A stretch of DNA of 50,382 nucleotides from a virus. Under the pieces are notes generated by a model. It was not told the origin of the DNA. It ran no database searches and was given only the letters and a program-made list of their open reading frames with translations. Numbering within the stretch: the stretch's first letter is position 1; each line of letters starts with the position of its first letter. The stretch lies in the UHGV virus genome UHGV-1368299, one strand, 5' to 3'. The position numbers were made by a program, and so were the translations under genes. Below are positions 191 to 50,043 of the stretch, piece by piece.

Positions 191-568
191 ATGCGAACAG
201 TTACCATTTCGAACAGATTTTCCTACATCATCGGATCGCCTGAAGAGCGTATCAAGGCCATGCGCGACAAGGCGACCAATGACGTTACCGATGCCTTCAG
301 TGCTGCGGCTAAAGCTGCGATCACGCATTACTACGGTCGTGGCCCGGAAGAGTTCAGCGCGGAAAGTGCGCCTTTCCTGGTTGTCAAAAAGGAGGGCGGT
401 AATGTATGGCAAATCAACGACAAGCAGACTGGCGAGTTTATTTTCGGATCGGTTCCGTGCCGGGTAGGAAGCAACGATGTTACCATCCAGGAACTCGGCG
501 ATCATGAACCTCGCGTTCAGCGCACGATCTACATCAGCCAGGATTACGCGACCTGCGTTCCGGCATAG
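191..568 (+). CDS. hypothetical protein (125 aa)
   Basis: ORF track; co-directional and tightly coupled with flanking + strand genes; preferred over antisense ORF 149..571. Confidence 0.5.
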   Translation: MRTVTISNRFSYIIGSPEERIKAMRDKATNDVTDAFSAAAKAAITHYYGRGPEEFSAESAPFLVVKKEGGNVWQINDKQTGEFIFGSVPCRVGSNDVTIQELGDHEPRVQRTIYISQDYATCVPA

Positions 569-640
569 CACGTTTTGCTAAAACAACATGGCGGGATAGT
601 GGCATACTATCACCACACCAACAAGCGAAGGAGCTACACA

Positions 641-868: not shown

Positions 869-1557
869 AAGAAAAGGTTATTTACTGCATGTTCGACGGC
901 TCAGGTATCATGGGCCTGCCGTGGGCCATCAAGGGATGCAAGGTGTATTGCTTCAATGCCGACTCCGGCGACCACGGAGAATACAGCATTCGAATGGTTC
1001 ACCCCAATATCCAGTATGTTAACATTTGGATCGACAAGGATTTTGACGTGAAGCGATCGATTCTCGGCGTTCCCGATCCTGACTTCATTTTTGCGTTCCC
1101 GTCATGCACGCTGTTAGCGCATAGCGGCATCAAGCACGTAAGGCAAGATAATGACGTGCTATCCGCCGCAGATGATGCGAAGATGGTCGAACGCCTGGGC
1201 AACGAGTATGGTTGCCCCTGGATGGTTGAAAATCCGGTAGGAAAATTGTCGTCGCTATGGCGCAAGCCGGATTTCTATTTCCACCCGCGCGACTTCGGCG
1301 GCTATGTTTCCCCGGATGAGCCTGTTTGGCATCCAAAGATGCCCCATTGCGATAATTACACGAAGAAAACGTGCATTTGGCACGGAAACGGATTTGTCGA
1401 GCCTAAACGACTTTCCCCGCCGGATGGAGTAGAAGGCGTGAATTTCTTTTGGGCCTGGAAGTTTTTGGGCGGAAGGTCAGAAAGGACTAAAATGCTGCGC
1501 TCCATTACCCCGCGAGGTTTTGCCCGCGCTGTGTTCCAGGCGAATTATCGAGAATAG
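865..1557 (+). CDS. DNA C5-cytosine methyltransferase-like protein (short, ~230 aa)
   Basis: Motif I-like FDGSG, motif IV-like FPSC(T), motif VI-like ENPVGKL; ATGA overlap with upstream gene. Confidence 0.5.
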   Translation: MKEKVIYCMFDGSGIMGLPWAIKGCKVYCFNADSGDHGEYSIRMVHPNIQYVNIWIDKDFDVKRSILGVPDPDFIFAFPSCTLLAHSGIKHVRQDNDVLSAADDAKMVERLGNEYGCPWMVENPVGKLSSLWRKPDFYFHPRDFGGYVSPDEPVWHPKMPHCDNYTKKTCIWHGNGFVEPKRLSPPDGVEGVNFFWAWKFLGGRSERTKMLRSITPRGFARAVFQANYRE

Positions 1558-1614
1558 CACGAATTGCTAAAACTACCCGGCGAAAGTCGGGTAGCATTAC
1601 CACATCGAAACGCA
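1553..1614 (+). promoter_or_regulatory. intergenic cassette copy 1: AATAGCACgaatTGCTAAAA palindrome + CTACCCG/CGGGTAG stem-loop + CATTACCACATCGAAAC
   Basis: Reverse complement of the 20-mer TTTTAGCAATTCGTGCTATT seen 11 more times on the opposite strand; TAG stop of upstream gene embedded. Confidence 0.6.
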
Positions 1615-8760: not shown

Positions 8761-8817
8761 TGGTTGATGGAGTAATAATACCCGCACGCGGCGGGCATTA
8801 TTTAGCAATTAGTGCTG
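8761..8817 (-). promoter_or_regulatory. intergenic cassette copy 2 (CCCGCacgcgGCGGG hairpin + TTTAGCAATTAGTGCTG)
   Basis: Shares hairpin + 20-mer architecture; one mismatch in right half-site. Confidence 0.5.
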
Positions 8818-9045
8818 TTTTGCGAAATACTCAGCGCCTTCATGCGATTTAAACTCAATCAATTCTCGTTCAAGAATTTCTGGCCAGTCAGCGACCGGGG
8901 TTCCGTTGTCCATGAACTCCATGTAGGTTCCGTCGATGGTGTCAGCGAAGGCTAACTTTTCCTCATCCGTACCAATGAAGCCGTACTTGTCCAGCAATTC
9001 AACAACGATCCGAAGATACTCGGAGAAAGATTCTACCTGTTCCAT
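8809..9045 (-). CDS. acidic hypothetical protein (78 aa)
   Basis: ORF track; co-directional. Confidence 0.5.
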   Translation of the reverse strand: MEQVESFSEYLRIVVELLDKYGFIGTDEEKLAFADTIDGTYMEFMDNGTPVADWPEILERELIEFKSHEGAEYFAKQH

Positions 9046-10080: not shown

Positions 10081-10139
10081 GTTTCGATGGGGAAATGATA
10101 CCCGGCTTTCGCCGGGCGGTTTTAACAAAAAGTGCTATT
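10081..10139 (-). promoter_or_regulatory. intergenic cassette copy 3 (GTTTCGATGGGGAAATGATA + CCCGGCtttcGCCGGG + TTTTAACAAAAAGTGCTATT)
   Basis: Full module; TAG stop of VRR-NUC gene embedded in GTGCTATT. Confidence 0.6.
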
Positions 10140-10542
10140 TGATGGCATCGCAGAAAGCGATCTTGAATTGCTCGAAGCCATAGGCCACGGCGGCGAATCC
10201 GCCGCGACGGCGAACGGCAGCAAGGAATTCCCTTTGCTCCTTGCTCACTGGTGACGCCTGCGCCTTGCCCTGGCGCTTTAGCTCGATGGCCGCGAACGGG
10301 TATTTGCCACCGAACCCAATCAGGATCAGAATGTCGCTAACGCCCTTCAGCAACCCCATTTGATGATCGATAACTGCGCTCGCCTTGTGCTTGCTGCCTT
10401 CATTGACTGTGTGCCAGAACAGATAATCAGGGTATTCGTGCCGCAGCCACGAAACGCTATTCATCTGATCGATTTTCTCAAGCGGGCAAGCCTTTACAGG
10501 CCCGCCGTAGTATTCGAGATAATCACCTTTATCAGTAATCAC
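10135..10542 (-). CDS. VRR-NUC domain nuclease (PD-(D/E)XK)
   Basis: Characteristic D..ELK segment (SDILILIGFGGKYPFAAIELKRQGK), ~135 aa. Confidence 0.7.
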   Translation of the reverse strand: MITDKGDYLEYYGGPVKACPLEKIDQMNSVSWLRHEYPDYLFWHTVNEGSKHKASAVIDHQMGLLKGVSDILILIGFGGKYPFAAIELKRQGKAQASPVSKEQREFLAAVRRRGGFAAVAYGFEQFKIAFCDAIK

Positions 10543-12600: not shown

Positions 12601-12628
12601 TTGTCATTCGCATAGTTGCGTGTATAAT
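12601..12628 (+). promoter_or_regulatory. sigma70 promoter: TTGTCA -N16- TG-TATAAT (extended -10)
   Basis: Near-consensus -35 and perfect extended -10, 50 nt upstream of first + strand gene in divergent region. Confidence 0.6.
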
Positions 12629-12639
12629 ACATGGAACAT

Positions 12640-12669
12640 TTTATCAGGTTTAACAAAAAATGCTATGAG
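12640..12669 (-). promoter_or_regulatory. degenerate cassette copy (TTTAACAAAAAATGCTATG) in divergent promoter region
   Basis: Partial match to 20-mer; no hairpin. Confidence 0.3.
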
Positions 12670-16963: not shown

Positions 16964-19900
16964 ATGGCACTATACAGAGAAGGCAAGGCAGCACTAGCCG
17001 CAGACGGAACAGTTACCGGGACTGGCACAAAATGGCAATCATCGCTTTCGCTAATTCGCCCTGGCGCGACGATTATGTTTTTATCGTCACCAATTCAAAT
17101 TGCTGTGGTAAACAAGGTGGTCAGTGACACTGAAATTAAAGCAATTACCACAAACGGCGCTGTCGTAGCGTCTACTGACTACGCGATCCTGTTAAGCGAC
17201 TCGCTGACCGTTGACGGCCTGGCGCAAGATGTTGCGGAAACTTTGCGTTACTATCAGTCGCAAGAAACCGCAATTGCGGATGCAGTCGATTCCTTTAAGG
17301 ATTTCGATTTCGAGTTGTTTAAAAATCTTGCCAGTCAGGTGAAGGCAGACTCTGAAGCTGCTAACGTAAGCGCTGCTAATGCTGCGGATTCTGAAAACTC
17401 GTCAAAAACTTCAGAAACTAACGCCAAAACCTCAGAGACTAACGCCAAGTCTTCTGAAAACGCGGCGAAAACTTCAGAGATTGCAGCGGAGAATGCAAGA
17501 GACGCCGCAGTAGCTGCACAGCAAGAGTCAGAAAATGCCGCAGCAGAATCTAAGAACTATGCGCTTCAGGCATCAGAAGTTGGAAACATGTTCTCTGATG
17601 AGGCGGCAGGATTGGCTGCTACATCAAATGGTCAATTCTTTCAGGTTCCTCAGGGTTCTGGAAGTTTTGTTTCATTCAAACTTTTTAAAAATAATAATGG
17701 CGTTGCTGAAGAAGTTGCGCGAGTTCCAGGCGCGGCAGCCATAACAGGGACAATCCGTGATTTTCCTACGCTTGCTTCGGCTCAGGCGGACGCAGATGCT
17801 GGCAACATACCTGTAGGATCAACTGCGTATTACCGCAGCCATGATGATAGTGCGCTGGCTATTGAGGTTATTAACAACGGTGGAACGCTTGAGCCTACTG
17901 GCCGGAAAATGCCGTCGCAGTATTCTGTTGAGCAGGCGCTGACTGCTGCCGGTCAGGTTGCCACTGCGGCCTCTGTACGAGACAATCAGTTACACGGAAT
18001 GAGTATGCCAGAACGGCGTACGCTGGCAGCAGACTTTACCCAGTATCTGGATGCGTTTTCTTCCGGCGGATCATCGGCACTGAACGTATCGGCGACTTAT
18101 GCAGATCGTGTGTTGCTGTCCATTTCCTCTTTCGCCACTAATTTTGCTACAGCTGCATGCACTCTGACGCTAACGGGAGCGGGAAGGACGCTGTTCAGTC
18201 AGGGGTTTTTTGACGGGGAAACGCTGACCGATGGTGTTTTGACAACCCCGTATTATGACGTGGCAATGCGGCAGTTTACCGTGAACAGCGTTTCTGCGGG
18301 TAATGATGCCTGGGTGCTAAAAGGGACAATCAAACTACCACAAGCGTATTCAACTACAGAGGCTCGTGTACTGCGTGACCGTAAAAACAGAATCCAGATC
18401 GGCATAGCATCGTCTGCATATACATACACTGTAGATACGCTTGCTTTTGATGCGGCTAATTCGCTGCTGTATGTAGCGGTATCACGTTCGGCGATGATTG
18501 CCGCTGGATATGCCGACACCACAGAAGGTGCTCAGAGGTATTTCTGGGATACCTACGGCGGGATTATCCTCAGCCAGAAATCCACCGCTTCTCAGACGCT
18601 GCCGGAATACACATTGTTTTTCTCAGAGGCGGGGACGGTGACAGCAGTAACCGACCAGAACTGCACGGCGACTATTCAGGTGACAAAAAAACTGTCTCTT
18701 GACGTGGGGAAAATGCAGTCAGACGCCAATGCCGTGAATATTGCTGCAAATGCCCAGACGTATGCTGCCGACAGGTTGCGGGCGCTGTCTGCTGAGTTGC
18801 CGGAGTTCAGTAACGATCTGGGTGTGGTAGGGAGTTTCTCCTCTGCGGTAGCCTACAGCGCCACCTTTAACGGTCCCTCGATTTTCAGACTGAGCAGATT
18901 GTCTCTGGCGACGAATAACAGGCGTATGGTGCTGTCTATAACGGACAGTCTGGGTACGGTGGAGAAACTGACGCTGCTGGAGGGGGAATCCATTTCCGGC
19001 GCAACTATTTCATCGCCGTACGTGGATTTTATCTTCGAACCGCGCATAATCAATTCGGTGGCGATCAACACCACCACGGGACGGACCCTGATGTATATTC
19101 CGGTGACATTACCGGGGGCATTACCATCAGACACGACGCGCATTATTCGCGACAGAGAAGGGGTATACGAAGCGTATTTACCGACTACCATCGCGGGCGG
19201 GACTTCCGCGGGGATCACTTATGATGCCTCTTCAGGAAGTCTGATGCTGGCGGTAATGAATGCGGCGGTGACCGCCGCCGGATATGAACTCACAACTGCC
19301 GGGGTTATTAAGTATGTTGTCAGTGAGTTAACTGGCAAGGTTTTTAGCCAAATCTCATCGACAACGGTCACGCAGGTTTTCTGTAATCTGTTTAAGCTGG
19401 CTCCGGGCGCGGTGACGGTGACAACGGACGGGAATGCTGCGACGGATAAAGTGGTGACCATGACTGGCTCATTCTATGGACCTAAAATGACAACAGATGA
19501 ACTGACTACATACAGACGCTATGAAACCACCGTTCGTAATAATACCGGTTATGCGACAGGACTGCGCCCGGTAAAAATTAAATGCAAGTTCGGTCCGGGA
19601 GAGGTTCCGAACGACAGATGTCTGGTGGTGACGGATGCAGATGGCACGGTTTATCCATGCCAGTGGGCGGGAGAGCCGGATTTCAACCCGCGCCGGGGTC
19701 GCAATCTGAGTTACTGGGGCGATGACTCCCTGCGCAGCGGTGAGCTGCTTATTCTGGATAATCTCTCCGCCGGGGCAGCAAAAAAATATGTGGTTAAAGC
19801 CTACCCGACAGAGCAGTCTGCTTCACTGTACAGCCGCACGGTAAGAGAATCGTCCACCAGTTTTCTTGTGACAGCAGATGACGGGACTCAGGTACGTTTT

Positions 19901-32113: not shown

Positions 32114-32141
32114 CTATTATGCACAAAAAAAGGCGAGGCAC
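32114..32141 (-). terminator. terminator after major tail gene (GGCGGGGcttgtgCCTCGCC + T7; one G-U pair on minus transcript)
   Basis: 7-bp stem, T7 tract. Confidence 0.55.
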
Positions 32142-32157
32142 AAGCCCCGCCATTTAA

Positions 32158-33766: not shown

Positions 33767-35007
<1,241 letters not shown>

Positions 35008-38625: not shown

Positions 38626-39922
38626 CCGCCTCCGTGTTGTTTAAGATCTCTTCGCTTTGCGTCTTCCCTGAACCAGTGGTGCGATCGGGGAGTTTTTTCT
38701 GTTCCGGCGCGTTGCCTTTTAGCTTCAGTTCTGGAATCAACGCCGACAGAGTATCACGCGCTTCGTTGGCGTCAATAACCTGGTCGGTAACGAGGCCGCG
38801 AGCCGCGTTGGCGTTCTTCTGGAAGATATCCGCTTTCTCCGCATCGGTAGGCAGCGACAACGGTTCGAACTCGACGCTGTATTCCTCCTCCGTTACGATG
38901 AACTGTAACAGGAATTCTAACAGCGGCTTGTAATCGTCATTGCGCTTTCGGTCAACCAGTTTGTAGAACGTCTGTAGCGCCGTGTTCTGGCTTGCGCTTA
39001 CGCCACCAGTATTTTTGTTTTTTAGCACGATCTCATGAATGCCTGACAGCGCGACAATCCGATCCATCTTCGCGGAAAGGAATTCCGGGATGCCTGAAAT
39101 ATCGGAGTTGATAACGGTGTACTCTTCGTCGTCCGCATCAATGCCGATCGTGTTTCCGACGCCGGAATTAGCATCAACCTGCGCCATGCGCAACCGGGCC
39201 GCATACTCGCCCTCCTTGTCGTCGCAGATTAGCGCCAGGCCTTTCGCCTTCCAAACGCCCTGCTGCTTGCGCTTCAGTAGCTGCGTTGCCAGATATTCCG
39301 AATAGTCGTAGTCAAGAATCGCTTCAATGATCGACTTGTTCAGCACCGAACCACCAGCGCCCTTGTTTAGCTGGCGCACCTTATTGGTTACTCGCTCGCC
39401 GTCGATGTAGTGCATACGGGTATAATGCACCTTGAACGGTTGCCCGCCGTTTAGCGGCTTCACCTCGTACATTTTAGGCTTTCCGAATCGTGGGCTTCGC
39501 GGGCTGGTTTCCTCCTCTGCGACGGAAACGGAATCATGGTCGTAAACAACGATCGATTCGAGCGGCTTACCCTGCTTCGCTGCCGAAGTCAACGCGCGAC
39601 CATCGTTAACCATCACCAGGACGTAGGAGCCACCATACAGCCTCGCCCAGCAAAGAGCATCGGTGATTTGCGGCTCCAGATTTAACCCGTCCCATTCTGA
39701 TTGAAACTTGGTGTTATCTGAAATGCCGTTTAGCTGGAAGCCGGGAGCGACCATCTCTTCCGGGATCACGTCAACGATTTTCTTCGCCATGCCGTTTTCA
39801 TGATAGAACTCTTCAACCTGCGACATTGTTCCAAATCTTGCCGCTATAGACGCGAGTGTTGACGCATAACCAGCGCCACCATTAAAGATTTGATTATAGT
39901 CGTCCATCTTAATGTTATTCAT
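38612..39922 (-). CDS. portal protein
   Basis: 436 aa directly downstream of terminase large subunit. Confidence 0.8.
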   Translation of the reverse strand: MNNIKMDDYNQIFNGGAGYASTLASIAARFGTMSQVEEFYHENGMAKKIVDVIPEEMVAPGFQLNGISDNTKFQSEWDGLNLEPQITDALCWARLYGGSYVLVMVNDGRALTSAAKQGKPLESIVVYDHDSVSVAEEETSPRSPRFGKPKMYEVKPLNGGQPFKVHYTRMHYIDGERVTNKVRQLNKGAGGSVLNKSIIEAILDYDYSEYLATQLLKRKQQGVWKAKGLALICDDKEGEYAARLRMAQVDANSGVGNTIGIDADDEEYTVINSDISGIPEFLSAKMDRIVALSGIHEIVLKNKNTGGVSASQNTALQTFYKLVDRKRNDDYKPLLEFLLQFIVTEEEYSVEFEPLSLPTDAEKADIFQKNANAARGLVTDQVIDANEARDTLSALIPELKLKGNAPEQKKLPDRTTGSGKTQSEEILNNTEADDES

Positions 39923-39967: not shown

Positions 39968-41569
39968 TCAGCGACCCAGCTTTTTCAATCCCGCAAGGCG
40001 TTTCATTCGCTCCACCGGATCATCGCTTAGGTTCATTTCCAGGTTTGCGGCGTCAAACACGTTGTCGCAAATGTCATCGTGTGGATGAGAATCGTCATAT
40101 GTAAACGCGCTCATCTCTGCCTCAAGCTCCGCAACGAACGGATGATTGTCCGGCAGCACGACACGCCCGCCTTTGATGATTGGTTGCGCATCCATAGCGC
40201 GAGTGACTTTATCTTTATCGCGCTGCACCGGGACGATCTCGCCCATGCCGTTTACCGCCTTCGTTAAATCCTGGATTAGACCAGTACCGCTCGCTTTGTC
40301 TTCGATGTAGATCCGGCGAAGGTTTCCGCACTCCTTGTTCCGACGCCAGCACTGCTTGATGAATGCTTCGGCCTGCACGCGGAGATCTGGCGCTTCCCAC
40401 TTGCCGCGAATACCGTCAATGAAGTAGACGCGATCCCGGTACTTGCCCCAATAGCACATTACGGAGTAGTCGTTTAGCTCCTTGACCTTCTGCGCGGTGT
40501 CCGCAGTGATGAACGTATATTCGAACTTGTCCGGGCGCGGCTCGTGCGCCTTGTCGGAATCGCCGTAATAGCGCCACCACTCCGACTTGAACACGTTACC
40601 ACCCAGGGCGATTGGCTCCTGCTGATACTGCGAAAGGAACGTATAAAGATCGGCTTCGCGTAGCGCAACCAGGTTCTCGATCGATTCGTTCCCCTCCCAA
40701 AATGACCAGTATTCCACGCCGTCAATGACCACCGACGGGCCAGAAAGCACATCGCGTTCGAACTCAGGTCTCAACCAGTCAGGGAGCGATTCGCCGTATT
40801 CCCTCGTTACCATCGCCGGAATAACAATGCGATCGAAGTCGATGGCCATCCCTCCGCTCATCATGAACCAGGTGGCATCCTGCGCGTGCAATCGCTGCTG
40901 CACGGAAAGGATTGGCGTTTCGTCGCCCTTCTTCTTCTTCGCTCGACGGGATCGAATGGTGTTTTTCAGTAGTACGTGGTTTTTCTCACGCTTCACCTTC
41001 GAGAACATGTCATCGGGTTTGTCGATATCATCCAGCGCGATAAGGCCGCTAAACCCTGGCGTCATGTACCCGCCACGCTTACCGACGATCTGACCGCCAG
41101 ACGAACGGGAGACCATTTCCAGCCTTACGCGGTCGTTATCGTCCATGACCTGAAATTCATCGATCTGCTTGCGCCCGAACTTTGATGGCCATAGCTCCTG
41201 CCACTCGCTTGATGAGAAGATCTTAATCACGCGATCCGAGTTTCCTTTTGACAGTGCGTCACCCTGCGAGATCTGAAGGTTTCGAACCTTCCGGCATTTA
41301 AGATACGCATACGGCGCGAGGTGGATTGAAAACACCTCAGTCTTCGTGGAGCCTGGCGCAACGTTAACGATCGTGCTCTTGCGCTTCCCGGCGATAATTT
41401 CATCAACCGTGTGGCAAAAGTAGGAGTGATGCCAGTTCCACATTAGCTTTTCTCCCTGGATGATCTGGAACCAGATCTTCAGGAATAGCGAAAAGTTGCG
41501 CGTACTCAGCGCCTTAATTGCCAGCTTATCTGCTGGCGACAGGTCTTCCCAAATGATCATTTCGTTCAT
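39968..41569 (-). CDS. terminase large subunit
   Basis: 533 aa; ATPase N-half and nuclease C-half (conserved acidic residues); adjacent small subunit gene. Confidence 0.9.
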   Translation of the reverse strand: MNEMIIWEDLSPADKLAIKALSTRNFSLFLKIWFQIIQGEKLMWNWHHSYFCHTVDEIIAGKRKSTIVNVAPGSTKTEVFSIHLAPYAYLKCRKVRNLQISQGDALSKGNSDRVIKIFSSSEWQELWPSKFGRKQIDEFQVMDDNDRVRLEMVSRSSGGQIVGKRGGYMTPGFSGLIALDDIDKPDDMFSKVKREKNHVLLKNTIRSRRAKKKKGDETPILSVQQRLHAQDATWFMMSGGMAIDFDRIVIPAMVTREYGESLPDWLRPEFERDVLSGPSVVIDGVEYWSFWEGNESIENLVALREADLYTFLSQYQQEPIALGGNVFKSEWWRYYGDSDKAHEPRPDKFEYTFITADTAQKVKELNDYSVMCYWGKYRDRVYFIDGIRGKWEAPDLRVQAEAFIKQCWRRNKECGNLRRIYIEDKASGTGLIQDLTKAVNGMGEIVPVQRDKDKVTRAMDAQPIIKGGRVVLPDNHPFVAELEAEMSAFTYDDSHPHDDICDNVFDAANLEMNLSDDPVERMKRLAGLKKLGR

Positions 41570-41578
41570 ATCTGACCC

Positions 41579-42103
41579 TTACAGCTTATCAAGAATATTG
41601 GTCACTGCCTTCTCTAACTTCTCTTCGGTGATCTCGTTCTTATCCCCGGCGATAGCGTCGATGTTCAGCACTGGCGGCTTATCGATCCCCATCTCTTTAC
41701 CGACGAAAGAAGCGTTAATCATGCCGACGGCAGCAAGCTGAAATTTCTGCTCATAAATCACGGAGTCGATGAACTCCATGACGGGAGCATAGTTGGGATC
41801 GTGACGGTAGCGCCCAAGCGTTGACTGGTTCACGCCGCAAAACAGGCTTAACCCTGTGATCGTAAAAATGCGAGGCTTGCTCACTCCCCACTCGTTAACG
41901 TCGCCCTGAAACGTTGCCGTTTCCGCAGCCTTGATTGCGTTATCTTCGGCCCACTGGAAGTAACGCTTTGCGATATCAAAAAATTGTTCCGGCGTCATCT
42001 CTGCCGTGCGCCCTAGTACCACGCCGAACTCCTTTTCATATAGCGCTTTAAAGTTGCCTGCAAAGTGCGATTTCGTTACGCGTTTTCTACGTTCTTCAGA
42101 CAT
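41579..42103 (-). CDS. terminase small subunit candidate
   Basis: 174 aa, basic N-terminus, immediately upstream of TerL; AGGAGG SD. Confidence 0.65.
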   Translation of the reverse strand: MSEERRKRVTKSHFAGNFKALYEKEFGVVLGRTAEMTPEQFFDIAKRYFQWAEDNAIKAAETATFQGDVNEWGVSKPRIFTITGLSLFCGVNQSTLGRYRHDPNYAPVMEFIDSVIYEQKFQLAAVGMINASFVGKEMGIDKPPVLNIDAIAGDKNEITEEKLEKAVTNILDKL

Positions 42104-44093: not shown

Positions 44094-44151
44094 TTTCGAT
44101 GGGGTAACTATACCAGTTTACCCCTGATCGGTTTTAGCAATTCGTGCTATT
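44094..44151 (-). promoter_or_regulatory. intergenic cassette copy 5 (CGATGGGGTAAC...TTTACCCC hairpin, loop-side GATC, TTTTAGCAATTCGTGCTATT)
   Basis: Full module. Confidence 0.6.
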
Positions 44152-44186
44152 TGGCAGGCAATCCATTTTGGCACCCAAAAGCCATC

Positions 44187-44378: not shown

Positions 44379-44400
44379 GATGTTTTTCCTTGTCTTTGGT

Positions 44401-44449
44401 GGGGTGGCCATGCAGCAACCCCGGTTAGTGTTTGTGGTTCGTGCTATTG
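44401..44449 (-). promoter_or_regulatory. partial cassette copy 6 (GGGGTGGCCatgcaGCAACCCC hairpin + ...GTGCTATT right half only)
   Basis: Right half-site and hairpin conserved; left half degenerate. Confidence 0.4.
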
Positions 44450-45091: not shown

Positions 45092-45143
45092 GTGGGGATA
45101 GTATGCACCATCCCCGGACGTTCGTTTTAGCAATTCGTGCTAT
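45092..45143 (-). promoter_or_regulatory. cassette copy 7 (GGGGATagtatgcaccATCCCC + TTTTAGCAATTCGTGCTATC)
   Basis: Full module. Confidence 0.6.
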
Positions 45144-45631
45144 CAAAGGGCGTCTAATTCCGCCTCAATGAATTCGTACCATTCGTCGCCGTTAACTGGA
45201 TCGTGTTCAGTTCCATGAAGCCAGTCCGTATGCACGGAACAGAATTCACCTGACCTGTTGAAATAATAGTCGGCCCAGGCTCGCGCCCAATCGCCGACGC
45301 CAGCGAACGTGCCGAACTTGCGGATGTATGCGTCGGTGTAACCGCGCTCCTTCGCAATGCGCTTCAGTGCGCGAACCAGCAACTTGCGCTGCGATGCCTT
45401 CGATACTTTCCGCAGGTGGAAAAGCGCGTTTTCCGGCTCGCCACCAACACGGATGGTCAAATCTTCGTCAGTGTCCAGCGGGTTGACGATGAATTCGTTC
45501 AGGTATCCGCCCTTGATTACGTGTACCGTGCCTAGTGGTTCGCGCACCTCGACGGCATCGAATACGCAGCCGATAAGGTGGCGTTCACGCTCGCGTGCTA
45601 CATTGACAACCATAAGTTTGATGGTGTTCAT
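45143..45631 (-). CDS. hypothetical protein (162 aa)
   Basis: TAATG coupling. Confidence 0.55.
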   Translation of the reverse strand: MNTIKLMVVNVARERERHLIGCVFDAVEVREPLGTVHVIKGGYLNEFIVNPLDTDEDLTIRVGGEPENALFHLRKVSKASQRKLLVRALKRIAKERGYTDAYIRKFGTFAGVGDWARAWADYYFNRSGEFCSVHTDWLHGTEHDPVNGDEWYEFIEAELDAL

Positions 45632-45849: not shown

Positions 45850-45877
45850 TGCGTTGCTCCTGATTGGATTGTTCACT

Positions 45878-45933
45878 TCAGTAACGCCACTTTATCAAAT
45901 GACGTTACGGCAGTTTTAACAAAAAGTGCTATT
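45878..45933 (-). promoter_or_regulatory. cassette copy 8 (CGTAACGccactttatcaaatgaCGTTACG + TTTTAACAAAAAGTGCTATT)
   Basis: Full module with divergent hairpin sequence. Confidence 0.55.
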
Positions 45934-46114
45934 CTTTTTCGCCGCTGAACGCTGCCCGATACCCACGGCGGAATCCGTTAATCTCAGACAGGCGGCATAC
46001 CCCAATGATGATGCAAATCATGCCGATCGCCTGCCAGCCTACGTGGTCATGCAGTACCAGGCCGCCCAGGAAGAAGGCCCAATACAGCGCGAGTTTCTTT
46101 TTGCTTACTTTCAT
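45929..46114 (-). CDS. small membrane protein (61 aa)
   Basis: GAGGTG SD; hydrophobic. Confidence 0.5.
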   Translation of the reverse strand: MKVSKKKLALYWAFFLGGLVLHDHVGWQAIGMICIIIGVCRLSEINGFRRGYRAAFSGEKE

Positions 46115-46736: not shown

Positions 46737-46760
46737 TGTGAATCTCCGTTGTTTGGTGTA

Positions 46761-46810
46761 TGGCCATTATGCCCGATCCTCTGACCGGGCGTTTAGCAAA
46801 AAGTGCTATT
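46761..46810 (-). promoter_or_regulatory. cassette copy 9 (GCCCGATCctctGACCGGGC hairpin with GATC + TTTAGCAAAAAGTGCTATT)
   Basis: Full module; hairpin has G-U pair only in minus-strand RNA. Confidence 0.6.
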
Positions 46811-47007
46811 CAGAAACCGAACGCCTCACGCTCCAGGCTGGCCAGCGACGGAAAGCTGAATTTTGTTACATGTAGTGAGCCGCCCACATAGCCGGAAATG
46901 CTGATATTGTTGAACTCAACCTCAACACTGATAATCTTCATTTTCTTGCTGAAGGCGTACATTGCAAGCGCACGGTGCGCCCGCGCAAGGAATTCGAATT
47001 GGTTCAT
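46810..47007 (-). CDS. hypothetical protein (65 aa)
   Basis: ATGA coupling. Confidence 0.45.
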   Translation of the reverse strand: MNQFEFLARAHRALAMYAFSKKMKIISVEVEFNNISISGYVGGSLHVTKFSFPSLASLEREAFGF

Positions 47008-47258
47008 TTAAAGATCGCCCCTTTGATTTTGTTCCAGAAAGCGAAAGGTACGCGCTTTGGCTTCAACTCCACCACGTCGTGATCGTAGAAGCCCAAGAGT
47101 AAGCCGCATTTCTTCGGTGGGACGTCCCCAATCACATCCCCCATGAAAAACCAGCTATCGCCATCCTTAAAGTAGACGCCTACGCACGCACCAGGTGCGG
47201 CATGGGTAGCAGTGTCCGGCAGGTTGTAGGTCTTGCCGCGAGATTCAAATTGTTGCAT
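47004..47258 (-). CDS. hypothetical protein (84 aa; start moved to ATG 47258)
   Basis: AAGGAGA SD. Confidence 0.5.
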   Translation of the reverse strand: MQQFESRGKTYNLPDTATHAAPGACVGVYFKDGDSWFFMGDVIGDVPPKKCGLLLGFYDHDVVELKPKRVPFAFWNKIKGAIFK

Positions 47259-47300
47259 TCTTCTGTCTCCTTGCATAATCGGTTTGTTAATAGACTTCGT

Positions 47301-47349
47301 GATTATTATGCCCGATCCCCTTACCGGGCGTTTAGCAATTCGTGCTATT
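47301..47349 (-). promoter_or_regulatory. cassette copy 10 (GCCCGATCcccttACCGGGC + TTTAGCAATTCGTGCTATT)
   Basis: Full module. Confidence 0.6.
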
Positions 47350-47665
47350 TCAGGCCGCGAAGGTCAATCTTCGATTTTGCCCAATCAGGGAAGCGAGCCA
47401 TTTCGCCCACCTGAACCATTTTGTTTACGCCATGCCCCTTATCCACCCATGAATCAGGCGAGTAGCTCAGTAGGCGAACATTTTCAACGGTCGACTCATA
47501 GGCCCAAATTGAGCCGTCGGCATCAATGGCAACCGTGTTGGCCCAAACTGGCACGTCAAGCGACTGCATATCGAACGTGCCAGGGATGTTAAACTGGAAG
47601 GCTACAACGTGGCGCTGCGTAATGGTCGCAACTACTCGCTCGCCGGATTTAACTTCGTGAATCAT
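47345..47665 (-). CDS. hypothetical protein (106 aa; start moved to ATG 47665)
   Basis: AAGGAG SD. Confidence 0.55.
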   Translation of the reverse strand: MIHEVKSGERVVATITQRHVVAFQFNIPGTFDMQSLDVPVWANTVAIDADGSIWAYESTVENVRLLSYSPDSWVDKGHGVNKMVQVGEMARFPDWAKSKIDLRGLK

Positions 47666-47675
47666 TGCGTTCTCC

Positions 47676-47888
47676 TTACAGAAACATTCCGGCCAGGCGC
47701 AGGCGGTTGATGATATCGTCACGCTTGACGCGGAGGCCGTCATAGTAGTCTTCGAGTTGGGGATCCCATGACGGCAGTTCAAGCATTGCTTTCATCTCAT
47801 CGCAGGCTACTTTAAGCGCGTTGAAGTTATGCTCGACGGCGCGACGGTGGGCTGCTGCGTTCAGTTCGTTGTTGTGGTTGCCAATCAT
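47676..47888 (-). CDS. hypothetical protein (70 aa; start moved to ATG 47888)
   Basis: AGAGGAG SD. Confidence 0.5.
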   Translation of the reverse strand: MIGNHNNELNAAAHRRAVEHNFNALKVACDEMKAMLELPSWDPQLEDYYDGLRVKRDDIINRLRLAGMFL

Positions 47889-47903
47889 GTTTTTTGCTCC
47901 TCT

Positions 47904-47962
47904 GTTTCGATGGGGTAATAATAACGCATTGCCCCGATCGAGTTTTAGCAAAAAGTGCTATT
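47904..47962 (-). promoter_or_regulatory. cassette copy 11 (TTTCGATGGGGTAATAATAACGCATTGCCCCGATCGAG + TTTTAGCAAAAAGTGCTATT)
   Basis: Full module; TCGATGGGG / CCCCGATCGA imperfect inverted repeat. Confidence 0.6.
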
Positions 47963-48146
47963 CCGCCAAAATCTCAAAGTCACGATCGTCGCTTTCGATA
48001 AACCACGGCTCACCTTCATCGTCGTGAGTCAGATAGCCGAACTTAAAGCTGTACGAATCAACGTCATAAACCTTGCCGATGGTGAACGCCTTCGCTGTGT
48101 CCTCGTTGTTGTCATTTCCAGTGAATCGAAGTCTTACAGTTTGCAT
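47958..48146 (-). CDS. hypothetical acidic protein (62 aa)
   Basis: AAGGAG SD. Confidence 0.55.
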   Translation of the reverse strand: MQTVRLRFTGNDNNEDTAKAFTIGKVYDVDSYSFKFGYLTHDDEGEPWFIESDDRDFEILAE

Positions 48147-48361
48147 TTATTGAACTCCTTAATCTGGTTCCCGCCGGAATGGTCTTCAATATCCACTCGG
48201 TCGCAGGTCACGTAAAAGCCGCGAATGACGGTGAAGCGCCACTTTCCTAACCAGTGGAAGTATACGCCGTGCTCGCTACCCTGTACGGCTTTGGTTGATG
48301 AGTATGGGATCGGCATCCCGGCGAAGGTGCGAAGTTTTGTTGTTGCTGAAAATCGTGGCAT
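48134..48361 (-). CDS. hypothetical protein (75 aa; start moved to ATG 48361)
   Basis: AGGAGG SD; preferred over overlapping low-complexity ORF 48247..48450. Confidence 0.45.
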   Translation of the reverse strand: MPRFSATTKLRTFAGMPIPYSSTKAVQGSEHGVYFHWLGKWRFTVIRGFYVTCDRVDIEDHSGGNQIKEFNKCKL

Positions 48362-48555
48362 TGCCAATCCTCCTGGCGTGAGCCGTGTTTACTGTGGGGA
48401 CATTGCGCCACCTTAGCGGCGCTATTGTGATTATTTGCCCTGGCGTGCAAGGTAGCGCTCTTTGAGCTTCTGCCAGTGCCAGCGCATGACGTGTTCGTTA
48501 TGGTAATTGCTCGTTGAATATGGATTCTTCTTGCTCATCTTCATATCCAGGTTGC

Positions 48556-48750: not shown

Positions 48751-48810
48751 TTGTCGATGGAAAGATAATACCCGATCTACCTGACCGGGGTTTTAACAAA
48801 AAGTGCTATT
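48751..48810 (-). promoter_or_regulatory. cassette copy 12 (GTCGATGGAAAGATAATA + CCCGATCtacctGACCGGGG + TTTTAACAAAAAGTGCTATT)
   Basis: Full module. Confidence 0.6.
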
Positions 48811-49384
48811 GCTTGCCGTGCTGGCTGATATCGCTGGCGGTCAACCCAAGATCGATAGCCGCGAACAAGTTCGCCTTGTAAATCCCGGTCAGAGCATCCC
48901 CGGCGAAGTCTACGGCAAGAGCGGACACTAAACCCTTAATCCTTTCCCGCTCGGAGGTGGCGCCCTGCCGCCTGTATGCCTCAGCCTCCAGGTGCGAGCC
49001 AGTCATTGCGTCGAACTCGGTAAAGACGGAGATTAACCCCGCTCCCAGGCTAACGCGCAACACCTCGCCCGGCTCCATGAGTTTCAGCAACGGCCTGCGG
49101 AAATGGTTGTCGACCGGATTAACGCCGAACTTCTCCATGAACTCCTCCGCCGTCATCTGGATACTCCGCCCGCCATCCAGGAACATGCGCCGGATCTCGG
49201 ATGAGCGATTGCCAGTGAATGTGCCTTCCGTCTTCGCTGCTTCCTGGCTCCGTCCGGCTGGCCTGGTGGCGTCGCCAAACGTGATGGATTGCAGCCATTC
49301 ATGGTAAGCGGCTTGCTTTTCTGCGTCGTACCGCATCCACTCGGACACGTCGACTTCTTCGAACTCATAGCCTTTGTATTGCAT
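48806..49384 (-). CDS. hypothetical protein (192 aa), first gene of right-arm early operon
   Basis: GGGGGA SD; downstream of candidate promoter. Confidence 0.55.
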   Translation of the reverse strand: MQYKGYEFEEVDVSEWMRYDAEKQAAYHEWLQSITFGDATRPAGRSQEAAKTEGTFTGNRSSEIRRMFLDGGRSIQMTAEEFMEKFGVNPVDNHFRRPLLKLMEPGEVLRVSLGAGLISVFTEFDAMTGSHLEAEAYRRQGATSERERIKGLVSALAVDFAGDALTGIYKANLFAAIDLGLTASDISQHGKQ

Positions 49385-49431
49385 TTGTGTTTCCCCCACA
49401 CTTACGGCGTTTGGTAATGTTTCGGAAGGTG

Positions 49432-49460
49432 ATAATACAGGCCGCAGGCCTTGCCGTCAA
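49432..49460 (-). promoter_or_regulatory. candidate sigma70 early promoter TTGACG -N17- TATTAT (minus strand)
   Basis: Good -35/-10 with 17-nt spacer about 45 nt upstream of first early gene. Confidence 0.45.
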
Positions 49461-49720
49461 AGGGTTTCGGCGTGTTTGGTAAGATTTGCTGTCATCCCCT
49501 ATATATCCCTATATACATTTTTTCGCGGCGGAACATCTAAAAATTATGGCTTGCGCAAGGTGAATCCATAACATCCCCGGAGAAATCTTACCAAACATAT
49601 ATAAAGATAAAGAGTAATAATAATAATATTATTATTTATCATATACTTATATATCTATTATAGGCTTATATTGGTCACTTTTTGCGCAATTTTTAGGTAA
49701 GATTATTCCTCCCCCACACT
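49460..49720. repeat. AT-rich hub 2: GGTAAGAT iterons (inverted pair TTTGGTAAGATTT/AAATCTTACCAAA), CCCTATATA x2, inverted copy of the 45-bp element around AATAATAATATTATTATT
   Basis: Read directly; reverse complement of 49621..49666 matches 14283..14326 with 2-3 mismatches. Confidence 0.65.
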
Positions 49721-49837
49721 CCCACACGACGTAAATGTTGGCGAAACACAACTCGACGTTTTGCTGGCTTCGAACGGCAAATTGCGTGCATGGTGCATAC
49801 ATTTATGCAATTCGTTGCAAATCCTGAAACACTCCCA

Positions 49838-49965
49838 AAATCATTGCACAGAATGAAACAATCAAAAGCAATCATGATTCGTCAAAACTAATCACCAGGG
49901 AATCAGGTGCAATCACCATCTATTCCACTATTCCGAATCGGTGGAATAATCAGCAATCGCAGGAA
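49838..49965. repeat. AATCA motif repeated 7 times with about 10/21-bp phasing + 8-bp inverted repeat TATTCCAC/GTGGAATA
   Basis: Read directly; non-coding. Confidence 0.5.
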
Positions 49966-50043
49966 TAGCATTTTTTGTCAAAAGCCATCCGATCGGCTTT
50001 GCTATGATGACTTCAACGAAACGAATTGTAGTGGAGTGGAGCA

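What the first reader, a model, noticed from the sequence alone, without database searches (positions are those of the whole stretch)
46761..47349. Cassette hairpins preserve pairing only in the transcribed-strand RNA (G-U versus A-C asymmetry)
In copies 9, 10 and 12 the stem arms are GCCCGATC/GACCGGGC, GCCCGAT/ACCGGGC and CCCGATC/GACCGGGG. On the + strand DNA the mismatch would be A-C. In the minus-strand transcript it is a tolerated G-U wobble. The same bias appears in terminators at 32114..32141 and 34684..34708. This argues that the stem-loops act as RNA elements such as terminators, RNase sites or stabilisers, rather than as DNA cruciforms. Separately, five loops carry GATC (copies 5, 9, 10, 11, 12), the target of the phage-encoded Dam.
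Basis: partly seen in the sequence, partly recalled or inferred. Interest (0 to 1): 0.55.

Follow-up and report, generated by a model that had tools for sequence, protein, structure and literature searches.

The report
Hairpins nested in repeated phage promoters
The stem-loops are the variable part of a ~75-base module repeated between the genes of T1-like phages; they sit inside a probable promoter and evolve as folds of the coding strand, most likely RNA, but only some look like terminators and the Dam/GATC link is not supported.

Summary
The window is a Webervirus (T1-like Klebsiella phage). However, copies 9, 10 and 12 share one inherited wobble, so they count as one event. The other strand folds almost as well. 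Copy 11 shows the opposite asymmetry. The GATC sites lie in stem arms, not loops, and are not enriched.

Across 209 distinct cassettes from T1-like phages the strand bias holds. Internal G·U outnumbers A·C 60:16 (29:10 as cluster-level events). GNRA/UUCG loops occur 11 times on the sense strand and once on the antisense. Stems covary.

The cassette is the published but unexplained 21-nt repeat aaATAGCACnnnTTGyTAAAA of TLS and T1. I find it sits exactly 22 nt upstream of an extended -10 and a conserved C(-1)A(+1). It therefore looks like a sigma-70 promoter with a palindrome centred near -42.

Stems use only the promoter positions left free, in two geometries: ending at -13/-12 or at -1. Only some of the first type have a T-rich tail.

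Best reading: sense-strand RNA hairpins in read-through transcripts that mark the 3' boundary of the upstream gene. Some are leaky terminators; most are probably stabilisers. The function is inferred, not shown.

The parts
46759..46811 (-). Cassette 9. It comprises the 21-nt repeat (core TAGCACTTTTTGCTA, 46794-46808), a 22-nt spacer, the -10 element CATAAT (46766-46771) and a predicted +1 at 46759. The upstream gene stops at 46810-46812.
46771..46790 (-). Hairpin of copy 9: GCCCGGUC-AGAG-GAUCGGGC, with one G·U on the sense strand. Its 3' end overlaps the first base of the -10. The tail AUAAUGGCC is not T-rich.
   Evidence: sense -15.8, z -3.67; antisense -15.2, z -2.27
47298..47350 (-). Cassette 10. 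It comprises the repeat core (47333-47347, whose TAG is the stop codon of the upstream gene), the spacer, the -10 element CATAAT (47305-47310) and a predicted +1 at 47298.
47310..47329 (-). Hairpin of copy 10: GCCCGGU-AAGGGG-AUCGGGC, with the same G·U position as copy 9.
   Evidence: sense -11.9, z -1.97; antisense -10.2, z -1.77
48758..48811 (-). Cassette 12. It comprises the repeat core (48794-48808, TAG is the upstream stop), the -10 element TATTAT (48765-48770) and a predicted +1 at 48758.
48771..48789 (-). Hairpin of copy 12: CCCGGUC-AGGUA-GAUCGGG, followed by UAUUAUCUUU. It is the only window cassette that passes the terminator-like scan.
47911..47963 (-). Cassette 11. The stem encloses the -10: UCGAU(C)GGGG...CCCCAUCGA, 47907-47941.
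   Evidence: sense -13.6; antisense -17.5
45882..45934 (-). Cassette 8. A long stem encloses the -10 and +1 (45875-45914) and contains two U·G pairs. It belongs to the family with the clearest covariation.
45093..45145 (-). Cassette 7. The stem GGGGAUGGU-GCAU-ACUAUCCCC (45094-45115) ends at -1 and has one G·U on the sense strand.
44100..44152 (-). The stem is GGGGUAA...UUACCCC with an outer CGAU:AUCG helix (44097-44130). The GATC lies at the end of that outer helix.
12616..12668 (-). Cassette 5, the first promoter of a leftward unit. It diverges from the regulator-like gene at 12679-13080. It has no significant hairpin.
   Evidence: (z -0.28)
10088..10140 (-). Cassette 4. The hairpin is CCCGGC-GAAA-GCCGGG, followed by UAUCAUUU.
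8768..8820 (-). Cassette 3. The hairpin is GCCCGC-CGCGU-GCGGGU, extended by AAUAAU:AUUAUU pairing and followed by a T-rich -10.
1552..1604 (+). Cassette 2, on the + strand. The hairpin is CUACCCGGC-GAAA-GUCGGGUAG, and its G·U is on the + strand. The bias therefore follows transcription, not one DNA strand.
563..615 (+). Cassette 1, on the + strand. The stem GAUAGU...ACUAUC encloses part of the -10.
49963..50015 (+). Cassette 13 (repeat variant TAGCATTTTTTGTCA), the first promoter of the rightward unit. It has only a weak stem, which is not conserved in orthologues.
   Evidence: I4; z -1.30
32125..32151 (-). Canonical intrinsic terminator with a G·U on the sense strand and a U7 tail.
34685..34705 (-). 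Canonical intrinsic terminator with a UUCG loop, a G·U on the sense strand and a U5 tail.
44401..44422 (-). Hairpin GGGGUUGC-UGCAUG-GCCACCCC in a decayed cassette. The half repeat AATAGCACGAA is kept, but TTGCTA and a usable -10 are missing.
   Evidence: (D3)
48405..48422 (-). Hairpin GCGCCGC-UAAG-GUGGCGC, which has a G·U on the sense strand. It directly follows AATAGC in a second decayed cassette.

Best explanation
Each stem-loop is the freely evolving part of a compact intergenic module of T1-like phages.

MODULE LAYOUT
- A 21-nt repeat, aaATAGCACnnnTTGyTAAAA, containing the palindrome TAGCA-N5-TGCTA centred near -42. Its TAG is often the stop codon of the upstream gene.
- A 22-nt spacer.
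- An extended -10 element: G at -14, then TAnnnT.
- A 6-nt discriminator.
- A conserved C(-1)A(+1), then a short U-poor leader and the ribosome-binding site.

WHAT THE MODULE IS (inferred). It is a host sigma-70 promoter that has no -35 element. It is probably driven or controlled by a protein that binds the palindrome.

WHERE THE STEMS SIT (shown). The stem arms occupy only promoter positions that RNA polymerase does not read:
- either -30 to -13, ending at the -10;
- or -24 to -18 paired with -7 to -1, enclosing the -10.

HOW THE STEMS EVOLVE (shown). The stem sequences differ between cassettes through compensatory changes. They tolerate G·U but rarely A·C on the coding strand. They favour GNRA/UUCG loops on that strand. 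They are therefore selected as a fold of the coding strand.

MOLECULE AND FUNCTION (inferred). The simplest molecule is the RNA made when transcription from an upstream promoter reads through the cassette. In that RNA the hairpin starts about 20 nt after the upstream stop codon and marks the 3' boundary of that gene.
- Where the T-rich -10 and discriminator follow the stem directly (copy 12, partly 3 and 4; about 40% of such stems family-wide), it should act as a leaky intrinsic terminator.
- Elsewhere (copies 9 and 10, and all stems enclosing the -10), it cannot terminate by the canonical route. It most likely blocks 3' exonucleases or otherwise insulates the upstream gene's RNA.
For: PROMOTER ANATOMY
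- In 142 unfiltered distinct cassettes the best -10 match lies 22 nt after the repeat in 116.
- Information content peaks at G-14, A-11, T-7, C-1 and A+1.
- The repeat matches the published TLS repeat, which lies about 76 nt upstream of start codons. Here the repeat core lies 65-82 nt from the first downstream ATG.

STEM PREVALENCE AND POSITION
- 73% of cassettes have a stem, against 20% of control windows.
- Stem 3' ends cluster sharply at -13/-12 and at -1.

COVARIATION
- Copy-8 family, chosen by its loop and -10 and not by its stem: 97.6% of cells paired, 7 of 13 pairs changed on both sides, 0 of 500 shuffles as good.
- Stems ending at the -10: 7 of 7 pairs changed on both sides.

STRAND BIAS
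- G·U:A·C is 60:16 raw and 29:10 as cluster-level events. For stems ending at the -10 it is 26:0. Controls give 39:26.
- GNRA/UNCG loops: 11 on the sense strand, 1 on the antisense.
- Sense minus antisense folding energy is -3.1 kcal/mol after correcting for composition (p = 3e-8).

TERMINATOR SUBSET
- 24 of 59 stems ending at the -10 have a T-rich tail.
- Some cassettes carry textbook terminators, such as CCCGCTTCGGCGGGTTTTGTATTAT.
- The T1 GenBank record annotates cassette hairpins as rho-independent terminators at 38973-39001, 39998-40024 and 41980-42007.

DEPENDENCE ON READ-THROUGH
- In the window and in T1, 23 of 24 cassettes that follow a co-directional gene fold at -8.5 kcal/mol or better. 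Only 1 of 4 cassettes with no such gene does. This is my tally; Fisher p is about 0.005, worked out by hand rather than with a tool.
- Two decayed cassettes have lost the promoter parts but keep the hairpin.
- A canonical sigma-70 promoter at 49460-49432 could supply the read-through transcript.
Against: - No 5' or 3' RNA ends are known for any T1-like phage in the literature I could search. The promoter, the read-through and the RNA role are all inferred.
- The strand bias is modest. The antisense folds at least as well in 26 of 58 clusters. For stems that enclose the -10 the ratio is only 21:10 as events.
- Copy 11 contradicts the rule.
- Faster C-to-T change on the coding strand during transcription could produce part of a 2:1 bias without any selection.
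- G·T pairs and GNRA-type loops also stabilise single-stranded DNA hairpins (my own knowledge). RNA and coding-strand DNA are therefore not separated.
- T content downstream of the stem is no higher in cassettes whose stem ends at the -10 than in cassettes with no stem (4.9 against 5.0 T in -12 to -1). There is thus no sign of extra selection for a U-tract.
- The sharp placement of the stems relative to the -10 and +1 could equally mean a role in promoter function.
- T1's first promoter (upstream of the helicase gene) has an inverted repeat although no upstream transcription is expected.
- The alignment was assembled from cassettes in which a stem had already been detected, so its percentage paired is circular.
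Confidence: 0.5

Rival explanations
1. DNA-level promoter element. The inverted repeat acts in the DNA of the promoter itself, either as a cruciform or as a hairpin in the non-template strand. It tunes melting or occupancy of the -10 that it abuts or encloses.
For: - Stem 3' ends fall at exactly two promoter landmarks: -13/-12 and -1.
- Stems of the second type place the -10 in the loop.
- T1's first promoter has an inverted repeat around the -10 although no upstream gene reads into it.
- G·T pairs are tolerated in DNA hairpins (my own knowledge).
Against: - A cruciform forms both hairpins at once, so it predicts no bias between strands. The observed ratio is 29:10 as events, and 26:0 for stems ending at the -10.
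- The two geometries are explained more simply by the stems using the only unconstrained promoter positions.
- Hairpins persist in two cassettes that have lost the -10 and half of the repeat.
- First promoters in the window lack stems.
Confidence: 0.15
2. RNA-level, but acting on the downstream gene. After endonuclease cleavage of the read-through transcript, the hairpin becomes a 5'-terminal stem-loop. There it shields the downstream gene's RNA from 5'-end-dependent RNase E attack, or it directs a processing cut that recreates the 5' end of the primary transcript.
For: - Stems that enclose the -10 end at -1, immediately before the predicted +1.
- Leaders are A/C-rich and U-poor, which would make them poor RNase E substrates (my own knowledge).
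- The strand bias and covariation evidence is the same as for the best explanation.
Against: - No cleavage motif is conserved 5' of the stems.
- Stems ending at -13/-12 leave 12 or more unpaired nt before +1.
- There are no data on RNA ends.
Confidence: 0.15
3. All cassette hairpins are intrinsic terminators. This is the first option the reader listed.
For: - Copy 12 passes the terminator scan.
- 24 of 59 stems ending at the -10 have at least 5 T in the next 8 nt.
- GenBank records of T1 and PhiKpNIH-2 annotate such hairpins as terminators.
Against: - Only 1 of 73 stems enclosing the -10 has a T-rich tail.
- Copies 9 and 10 are followed by AUAAUGGCC and AUAAUAAUC.
- The phage uses clear U5-U7 tails where it has canonical terminators.
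- Efficient termination at every cassette would block expression from the single canonical early promoter.
Confidence: 0.08
4. The GATC sites make the cassettes switches that depend on the phage Dam methylase.
For: Six of the 13 window cassettes contain a GATC between the repeat and +4.
Against: - That is 6 observed against 2.7 expected (p = 0.057).
- Family-wide the GATC density equals the genome-wide density (0.0061 against 0.0059 per nt).
- The sites sit at variable offsets: 5, 6, 8-11 and 14-16 nt after the repeat.
- They arise from the shared paralogous GAUCGGG arm, or lie in or beside a CGAU segment that pairs with the conserved +1 AUCG.
Confidence: 0.03

Closest known systems
21-nt intergenic direct repeats of phage TLS, also reported in T1, Rtp and Rogue1 (German, Kropinski, Misra et al. 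2024, PMC11447400)
   Same: - The consensus is the same: aaATAGCACnnnTTGnTAAAA.
[quoted passage not shown]
- They occur in many copies per genome: 18 in TLS, 13 here.
   Different: - The paper leaves the function open, suggesting a stoperator, an enhancer site or an UP element.
- In the passages I read it does not mention the fixed 22-nt distance to a -10, the conserved +1, the hairpins or their strand bias.
Rho-independent (intrinsic) terminators, including those annotated in the T1 GenBank record NC_005833
   Same: - A GC-rich stem-loop lies just after a stop codon.
- G·U pairs and GNRA/UUCG loops lie on the transcribed strand.
- T1's annotators already called three cassette hairpins terminators.
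- The window's own late-region terminators show the same G·U rule.
   Different: - Most cassette stems lack a U-tract.
- The 'tail' is the -10 element of the next promoter.
- Half of the stems enclose that -10 and are followed by AUCGAAAC.
Stabiliser stem-loops between genes of multi-gene mRNAs, such as REP elements in malEFG or the 3' hairpins left on T7 early mRNAs after RNase III processing (my own knowledge)
   Same: - They are stable stem-loops between genes, without a U-tract.
- They are positioned to form once the ribosome has terminated.
   Different: - The stems here are short (7-12 bp), too short for RNase III.
- No processing or half-life data exist.
- The stems are embedded in a promoter, which those examples are not.
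Extended -10 promoters with a class II activator site, such as lambda cI at -42 of PRM or CRP at -41.5 (my own knowledge)
   Same: - There is no usable -35 at 17 bp.
- G-14 and the -10 are conserved.
- A 15-bp palindrome is centred near -42.
   Different: - The binding protein is unknown. The candidates are only two small PHROG 'transcriptional regulator' proteins.
- It could equally be a repressor site.
Coupled promoter-terminator units in bacteria (bioRxiv 10.64898/2026.08.19.745784). I saw only the opening lines of the abstract.
   Same: The idea is shared: termination of one unit and initiation of the next use overlapping sequence.
   Different: I could not read the paper, so no feature-by-feature comparison was possible.
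Hairpin promoters of the phage N4 virion RNA polymerase (my own knowledge; review listed)
   Same: A strand-specific DNA hairpin lies at a promoter.
   Different: - N4 hairpins have a 5-7 bp stem, a 3-nt loop and conserved sequence, and they need a phage polymerase.
- Here the loops are 4-16 nt and the stems vary freely.
- The authors of the TLS paper found no polymerase gene in TLS.

Membership tests
Drexlerviridae 21-nt intergenic repeat (TLS-type) | Consensus aaATAGCACnnnTTGnTAAAA | tested here: met
   Twelve matches to TAGCA-N5-TGCTA with at most 1 mismatch, against 0.9 expected. A thirteenth variant lies at 49966. The consensus is recovered.
Drexlerviridae 21-nt intergenic repeat (TLS-type) | Intergenic, oriented with transcription, about 76 nt upstream of the start codon | tested here: met
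   All 13 copies lie between ORFs and point in the direction of the genes. The repeat core lies 65-82 nt from the first downstream ATG.
Intrinsic (rho-independent) terminator | GC-rich stem-loop on the transcribed strand downstream of a stop codon | tested here: met
   The stop codon lies in or next to the repeat in 11 of 13 copies.
Intrinsic (rho-independent) terminator | U-rich tract immediately after the stem (at least 5 U in 8 nt) | tested here: not met
   Copies 9 and 10 have tails AUAAUGGCC and AUAAUAAUC. Copy 12 meets the criterion. Family-wide, 24 of 59 stems ending at the -10 meet it, and 1 of 73 stems enclosing the -10.
Intrinsic (rho-independent) terminator | RNA 3' ends 7-9 nt after the stem | not testable with these tools
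   No transcript-end data for T1-like phages were found.
Sigma-70 extended -10 promoter | -10 hexamer with A at position 2 and T at position 6, and G at -14 | tested here: met
   Information content is 1.4 at A-11, 1.3 at T-7 and 1.3 at G-14. The distance from the repeat is fixed at 22 nt in 116 of 142 cassettes.
Sigma-70 extended -10 promoter | Transcription start about 7 nt downstream of the -10 | not testable with these tools
   A conserved C(-1)A(+1) lies at the expected place. No experimental start sites are available.
Canonical sigma-70 -35/-10 promoter | TTGACA-like hexamer 16-18 bp upstream of the -10 | tested here: not met
   TTGCTA lies 22 bp upstream. None of the cassettes is reported by the scan.
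Sigma-54 (-24/-12) promoter | GG and GC elements in TGGCAC-N5-TTGC (consensus from my own knowledge) | tested here: not met
   The repeat reads TAGCAC-N3-TTGC. The GG is replaced by AG and the spacing is 2 nt shorter.
RNase III processing site (T7 early type) | About 20 bp or more of double-stranded RNA, often with an internal loop (my own knowledge) | tested here: not met
   The stems are 7-12 bp.
Rfam RNA families | Match at or above a family's gathering score | tested here: not met
   No hits in the whole window.
Intercistronic mRNA stabiliser hairpin | Stable stem-loop between genes with no U-tract | tested here: met
   Folding energies are -10 to -17 kcal/mol, with z-scores -1.4 to -5.1.
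Intercistronic mRNA stabiliser hairpin | Lengthens the half-life of the upstream RNA segment | not testable with these tools
   This needs RNA decay measurements.

The most novel reading that the evidence does not exclude
The module may be a true dual-use element, in which one 40-nt stretch is read twice. As DNA it is a host-polymerase promoter. As coding-strand nucleic acid it is a hairpin that ends or marks the previous transcript at that same promoter. Arrival of a read-through polymerase would then be mechanically coupled to re-initiation or to promoter clearance. A more radical version is that the coding-strand hairpin forms in the DNA and presents or hides the -10 for sigma-70, which would be a structure-dependent promoter for the host enzyme.
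Probability: 0.12. Interest if true: 0.75.

Novelty: new variant of a known kind. Interest (0 to 1): 0.45.

Why it matters
T1-like phages (Drexlerviridae) are among the commonest coliphages and Klebsiella therapy phages, yet how they are transcribed is essentially unmapped. [quoted passage not shown]

This analysis turns the question into a testable model. The repeat is the upstream element of an extended -10 promoter. Each promoter carries a hairpin selected on the coding strand, built from the promoter's free positions.

If the model holds, it gives three things:
- a transcription map for hundreds of sequenced phages;
- compact promoter-plus-boundary parts for engineering therapy phages;
- a clear natural case of overlapping DNA-level and RNA-level codes.

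Tried and rejected
- RFAM. A scan of the whole window gave no hits.
- PROMOTER SCAN. The standard sigma-70 scan does not see the cassettes, because the TTGCTA lies 22 bp from the -10.
- LITERATURE. Searching for the literal motif found only the TLS paper. Searches for Drexlerviridae start-site or transcriptome data found nothing usable.
- UNREADABLE PREPRINT. The preprint on promoter-terminator coupling could not be opened.
- FIRST COLLECTION SCAN. My first pattern for the viral collection was too strict and returned 4 loci. The looser pattern returned 120 loci, many of them chance single hits, so I kept only cassettes with a -10 at 21-23 nt or loci with several copies.
- UPSTREAM-GENE CLASSIFICATION. 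Automatic classing of 'upstream gene present or absent' by open-frame length was unreliable, for example for copy 13. I replaced it with a manual tally for the window and T1.
- GATC/DAM. GATC enrichment was tested and rejected.
- SIGMA-54. A -24/-12 reading of the repeat was considered because of its resemblance to TGGCAC-N5-TTGC. I rejected it because the GG is missing and the spacing is wrong.
- PHAGE POLYMERASE. I considered the 21-nt repeat as a promoter for a phage-encoded polymerase, which would put the hairpin at the RNA 5' end. I rejected it because the TLS authors found no polymerase gene, and because the -10 and +1 signal sits at a fixed distance.
- RNASE III. Rejected on stem length.
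- T-RICHNESS. I looked for extra T-richness after stems that end at the -10, compared with cassettes that have no stem. There was none.
- PFAM. Scans of neighbouring small proteins gave only a sub-threshold Cro-like helix-turn-helix match for 12679-13080.
Full report
WHAT THE WINDOW IS
The last 6.4 kb is about 90% identical to Klebsiella phages PG14 and P17. It has 398 matching records, almost all of them Webervirus (Drexlerviridae, T1-like). The region of the finding is a run of small genes on the minus strand. These genes are separated by a repeated intergenic cassette.

CHECKING THE OBSERVATION: WHAT HOLDS
- Each has one A·C on the + strand, which is a G·U on the minus (coding) strand.
- The two late-region terminators are genuine minus-strand intrinsic terminators with a G·U and tails of U7 and U5. 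They fold at -17.1 and -13.4 kcal/mol on the minus strand against -12.9 and -8.5 on the plus strand.
- The first terminator is really at 32125-32151, about 10 nt from the coordinates given.

CHECKING THE OBSERVATION: FOUR QUALIFICATIONS
1. Copies 9, 10 and 12 carry the same stem (CCCGGUC/GAUCGGG), and so do their orthologues. The wobble is one inherited feature, not three.
2. The plus strand still folds nearly as well: -15.2, -10.2 and -10.1 against -15.8, -11.9 and -11.1 kcal/mol. Pairing is not preserved 'only' in the transcript.
3. Copy 11 shows the reverse. It has C·A on the sense strand, and the antisense folds at -17.5 against -13.6.
4. The GATC sites are in the 3' stem arm (copies 9, 10, 12) or in or next to an outer CGAU:AUCG helix (the copies at 44135 and 47946). 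None is in a loop.
   - The window's cassettes contain 6 GATC against 2.7 expected (p = 0.057).
   - Over the whole family the density equals the genome's: 0.0061 against 0.0059 per nt.

WHAT THE CASSETTE IS
- The palindrome TAGCA-N5-TGCTA occurs 12 times with at most one mismatch, against 0.9 expected. A thirteenth variant lies at 49966.
- It is the core of the 21-nt repeat aaATAGCACnnnTTGnTAAAA described for phage TLS. There it has 18 intergenic copies, oriented with transcription and about 76 nt upstream of start codons. It is also seen in T1, Rtp and Rogue1.
- The TLS authors list its function as an open question (PMC11447400). I found no other paper on it.
- I collected cassettes from public viral contigs and phage records. 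In 142 distinct, unfiltered cassettes the best -10 match lies exactly 22 nt after the repeat in 116.
- Information content peaks at G-14, A-11, T-7, C-1 and A+1. That is the signature of an extended -10 sigma-70 promoter.
- With this geometry the palindrome spans about -49 to -35, centred near -42. The TTGCTA is 5 bp too far upstream to act as a -35.
- In 8 of the 11 window cassettes that follow a gene, the TAG of the repeat is that gene's stop codon.
- Two small proteins fall in PHROG 'transcriptional regulator' families: 12679-13080 (weak Cro-like helix-turn-helix) and 47676-47891. They are candidates for binding the palindrome. This is a lead only.
- The promoter reading is inferred from sequence. 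No start sites have been mapped.

WHERE THE HAIRPINS SIT
- Stem 3' ends fall at two sharp positions: -13/-12 or -1.
- In the first geometry (copies 2, 3, 4, 9, 10, 12) the hairpin fills the free part of the spacer, about -30 to -13.
- In the second geometry (copies 1, 6, 7, 8, 11) the 5' arm lies in the spacer at about -24 to -18. The 3' arm is the discriminator, -7 to -1. The -10 therefore lies in the loop. Some of these stems extend by pairing CGAU with the conserved +1 AUCG.
- The arms thus use exactly the promoter positions that carry no information.

ARE THE STEMS SELECTED?
- 153 of 209 distinct cassettes (73%) have a stem scoring at least 12. Only 239 of 1169 (20%) 46-nt windows from the upstream coding sequence do.
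- Window copies have sense-strand z-scores of -1.4 to -5.1.
- The copy-8 family was picked by its loop and -10, not by its stem. In it 97.6% of cells pair, 7 of 13 pairs change on both sides, and none of 500 shuffles does as well. Sliding the partners gives only 37-52% paired.
- A set of stems ending at the -10 shows changes on both sides at all 7 pairs. That set was assembled from cassettes in which I had already detected a stem, so its percentage paired is circular. It mainly shows that the stem sequences differ. This argues against a sequence-specific protein site.

IS THE SELECTION STRAND-SPECIFIC?
- I used a stem finder that scores G·T and A·C identically. I counted only mismatches flanked by two Watson-Crick pairs on each side.
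- G·U:A·C on the coding strand is 60:16. Counted as cluster-level events it is 29:10 (p = 0.003 against 0.5).
- The coding strand is A/C-rich, so composition predicts only 34% G·U.
- For stems ending at the -10 the count is 26:0. For stems enclosing the -10 it is 34:16 (21:10 as events), which is not significant on its own.
- Control coding windows give 39:26. Fisher p = 0.017 on raw, non-independent counts.
- Of 32 distinct 4-nt loops, 11 are GNRA or UNCG on the sense strand and 1 on the antisense.
- Over 58 cluster representatives, sense minus antisense folding energy is -1.25 kcal/mol (p = 0.04). After correcting for composition it is -3.1 (p = 3e-8). The antisense folds at least as well in 26 clusters.
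- The bias follows transcription rather than one DNA strand. Copy 2 lies on the + strand and has its G·U there.
- A symmetric cruciform cannot produce this bias.
- A hairpin in single-stranded coding-strand DNA could produce it. Part of a 2:1 ratio could also come from transcription-linked C-to-T change.

WHAT THE HAIRPINS DO
- Terminator-like tails (at least 5 T in 8) follow 24 of 59 stems ending at the -10, but only 1 of 73 stems enclosing it.
- Some cassettes contain textbook terminators, such as CCCGCTTCGGCGGGTTTTGTATTAT.
- The T1 GenBank record already annotates three cassette hairpins as rho-independent terminators, with the -10 serving as the tail. PhiKpNIH-2 does the same at one decayed cassette.
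- Copies 9 and 10 are followed by AUAAUGGCC and AUAAUAAUC.
- T content downstream of the stem is no higher than in cassettes with no stem.
- The phage's real terminators have U5-U7 tails.
- 'Terminator' therefore fits a subset only.

LINKS TO READ-THROUGH TRANSCRIPTION
- In the window, the 11 cassettes that follow a co-directional gene all fold well. The two that start a transcription unit, copies 5 and 13, do not (z -0.28 and -1.30).
- Adding T1 gives 23 of 24 against 1 of 4. This is my tally. Fisher p is about 0.005, worked out by hand; the sample is small and the result depends on the energy threshold.
- Two decayed cassettes (hairpins at 44401-44422 and 48405-48422) have lost TTGCTA and a usable -10 but keep the hairpin.
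- A canonical sigma-70 promoter at 49460-49432 heads the leftward gene run and could supply the read-through RNA.

BEST READING
These are RNA stem-loops that form about 20 nt after the upstream stop codon in read-through transcripts.
- Where the tail is T-rich they act as leaky terminators.
- Otherwise they act as 3' barriers or insulators for the upstream gene's RNA.
- They are squeezed into the next promoter because the intergenic space is only about 75 nt.

My confidence by step:
- about 0.8 that the stems are under selection as a coding-strand fold;
- about 0.65 that the molecule is RNA;
- about 0.45 for the specific 3'-boundary function.

COMPARISON WITH WHAT IS KNOWN
- The repeat itself is published but unexplained.
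- Hairpins at these positions have been annotated as terminators in T1.
- Using G·U to tell the transcribed strand is routine.
- In the literature I could search, the following are not described:
  - the fixed 22-nt link to an extended -10 and +1;
  - the two stem geometries built from free promoter positions;
  - the covariation and the family-wide strand bias.
- The element does not qualify as a canonical -35/-10 promoter, a sigma-54 promoter, an RNase III site or any Rfam family.

VERDICT
- The interpretation that the stems act in the transcript is partly supported. The terminator reading holds only for a subset.
- The Dam link is not supported.
- The surrounding module is a new variant of known kinds (promoter plus boundary hairpin).
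- It makes a stated open question about T1-like phages directly testable.

Noticed in passing
window 44390-44448 (-) and 48395-48436 (-): Two decayed cassettes keep AATAGC(AC) and a strong hairpin. The hairpins are GGGGUUGC...GCCACCCC and GCGCCGC-UAAG-GUGGCGC; the second has a G·U on the sense strand. Both cassettes lack TTGCTA and a usable -10. PhiKpNIH-2 annotates the counterpart of the second as a terminator.
   Followed up: partly
repeat cores at 566, 1555, 10123, 45917, 47333, 47946, 48794 and others: The TAG inside the 21-nt repeat is the stop codon of the upstream gene in 8 of the 11 window cassettes that follow a gene. The same holds in many T1 cassettes. Gene end and next promoter therefore overlap.
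   Followed up: partly
window 49430-49965: A large AT-rich divergent control region lies between the leftward and rightward early units. It contains a canonical sigma-70 promoter (TTGACG-17-TATTAT, 49460-49432, minus strand). It also has perfect 15-nt inverted repeats TGTTTGGTAAGATTT / AAATCTTACCAAACA (49473-49487 and 49583-49597), plus further copies of TTACCAAAC-like words. These could be operators.
   Followed up: no
whole window: CTAG is almost absent: 10 sites, against 108-299 for the other palindromic tetramers of the same base composition. GATC is over-represented: 299 sites against 196 expected from base composition.
   Followed up: no
repeat, all copies: The repeat TAGCAC-N3-TTGCT closely resembles the sigma-54 consensus TGGCAC-N5-TTGCW. 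It differs in having AG for GG and a spacing 2 nt shorter. I judged the resemblance to be chance, or at most historical.
   Followed up: partly
L126 (phage T1) 36444-36500; also loci L102, L089, L041: The cassette in front of the helicase gene is the first promoter of its unit and diverges from the regulator gene ST23. It has a long inverted repeat around the -10 (AACGTTTAC...GTAAACGTT in T1; TTCGTTT...AAACGAA in other genera), although no upstream transcription is expected. It may be an operator for the divergent regulator.
   Followed up: no
L126 (phage T1) about 18800-18870, minus strand; also L025, L037, L123: A conserved cassette with a -10 but no hairpin points against the late genes, between the major tail protein gene and the next gene. 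This suggests an antisense promoter in the late region.
   Followed up: no
window 47004-47276 (-) and 48134-48367 (-): Two small early proteins both match DUF7274, one strongly (1e-34) and one weakly. They are probably paralogues, each preceded by its own cassette.
   Followed up: no
window 12679-13080 (+) and 47676-47891 (-): Two small proteins fall in PHROG 'transcriptional regulator' families: phrog_2856 (with a sub-threshold Cro/YdaS helix-turn-helix match) and phrog_10377. They are candidates for binding the TAGCA-N5-TGCTA palindrome.
   Followed up: partly
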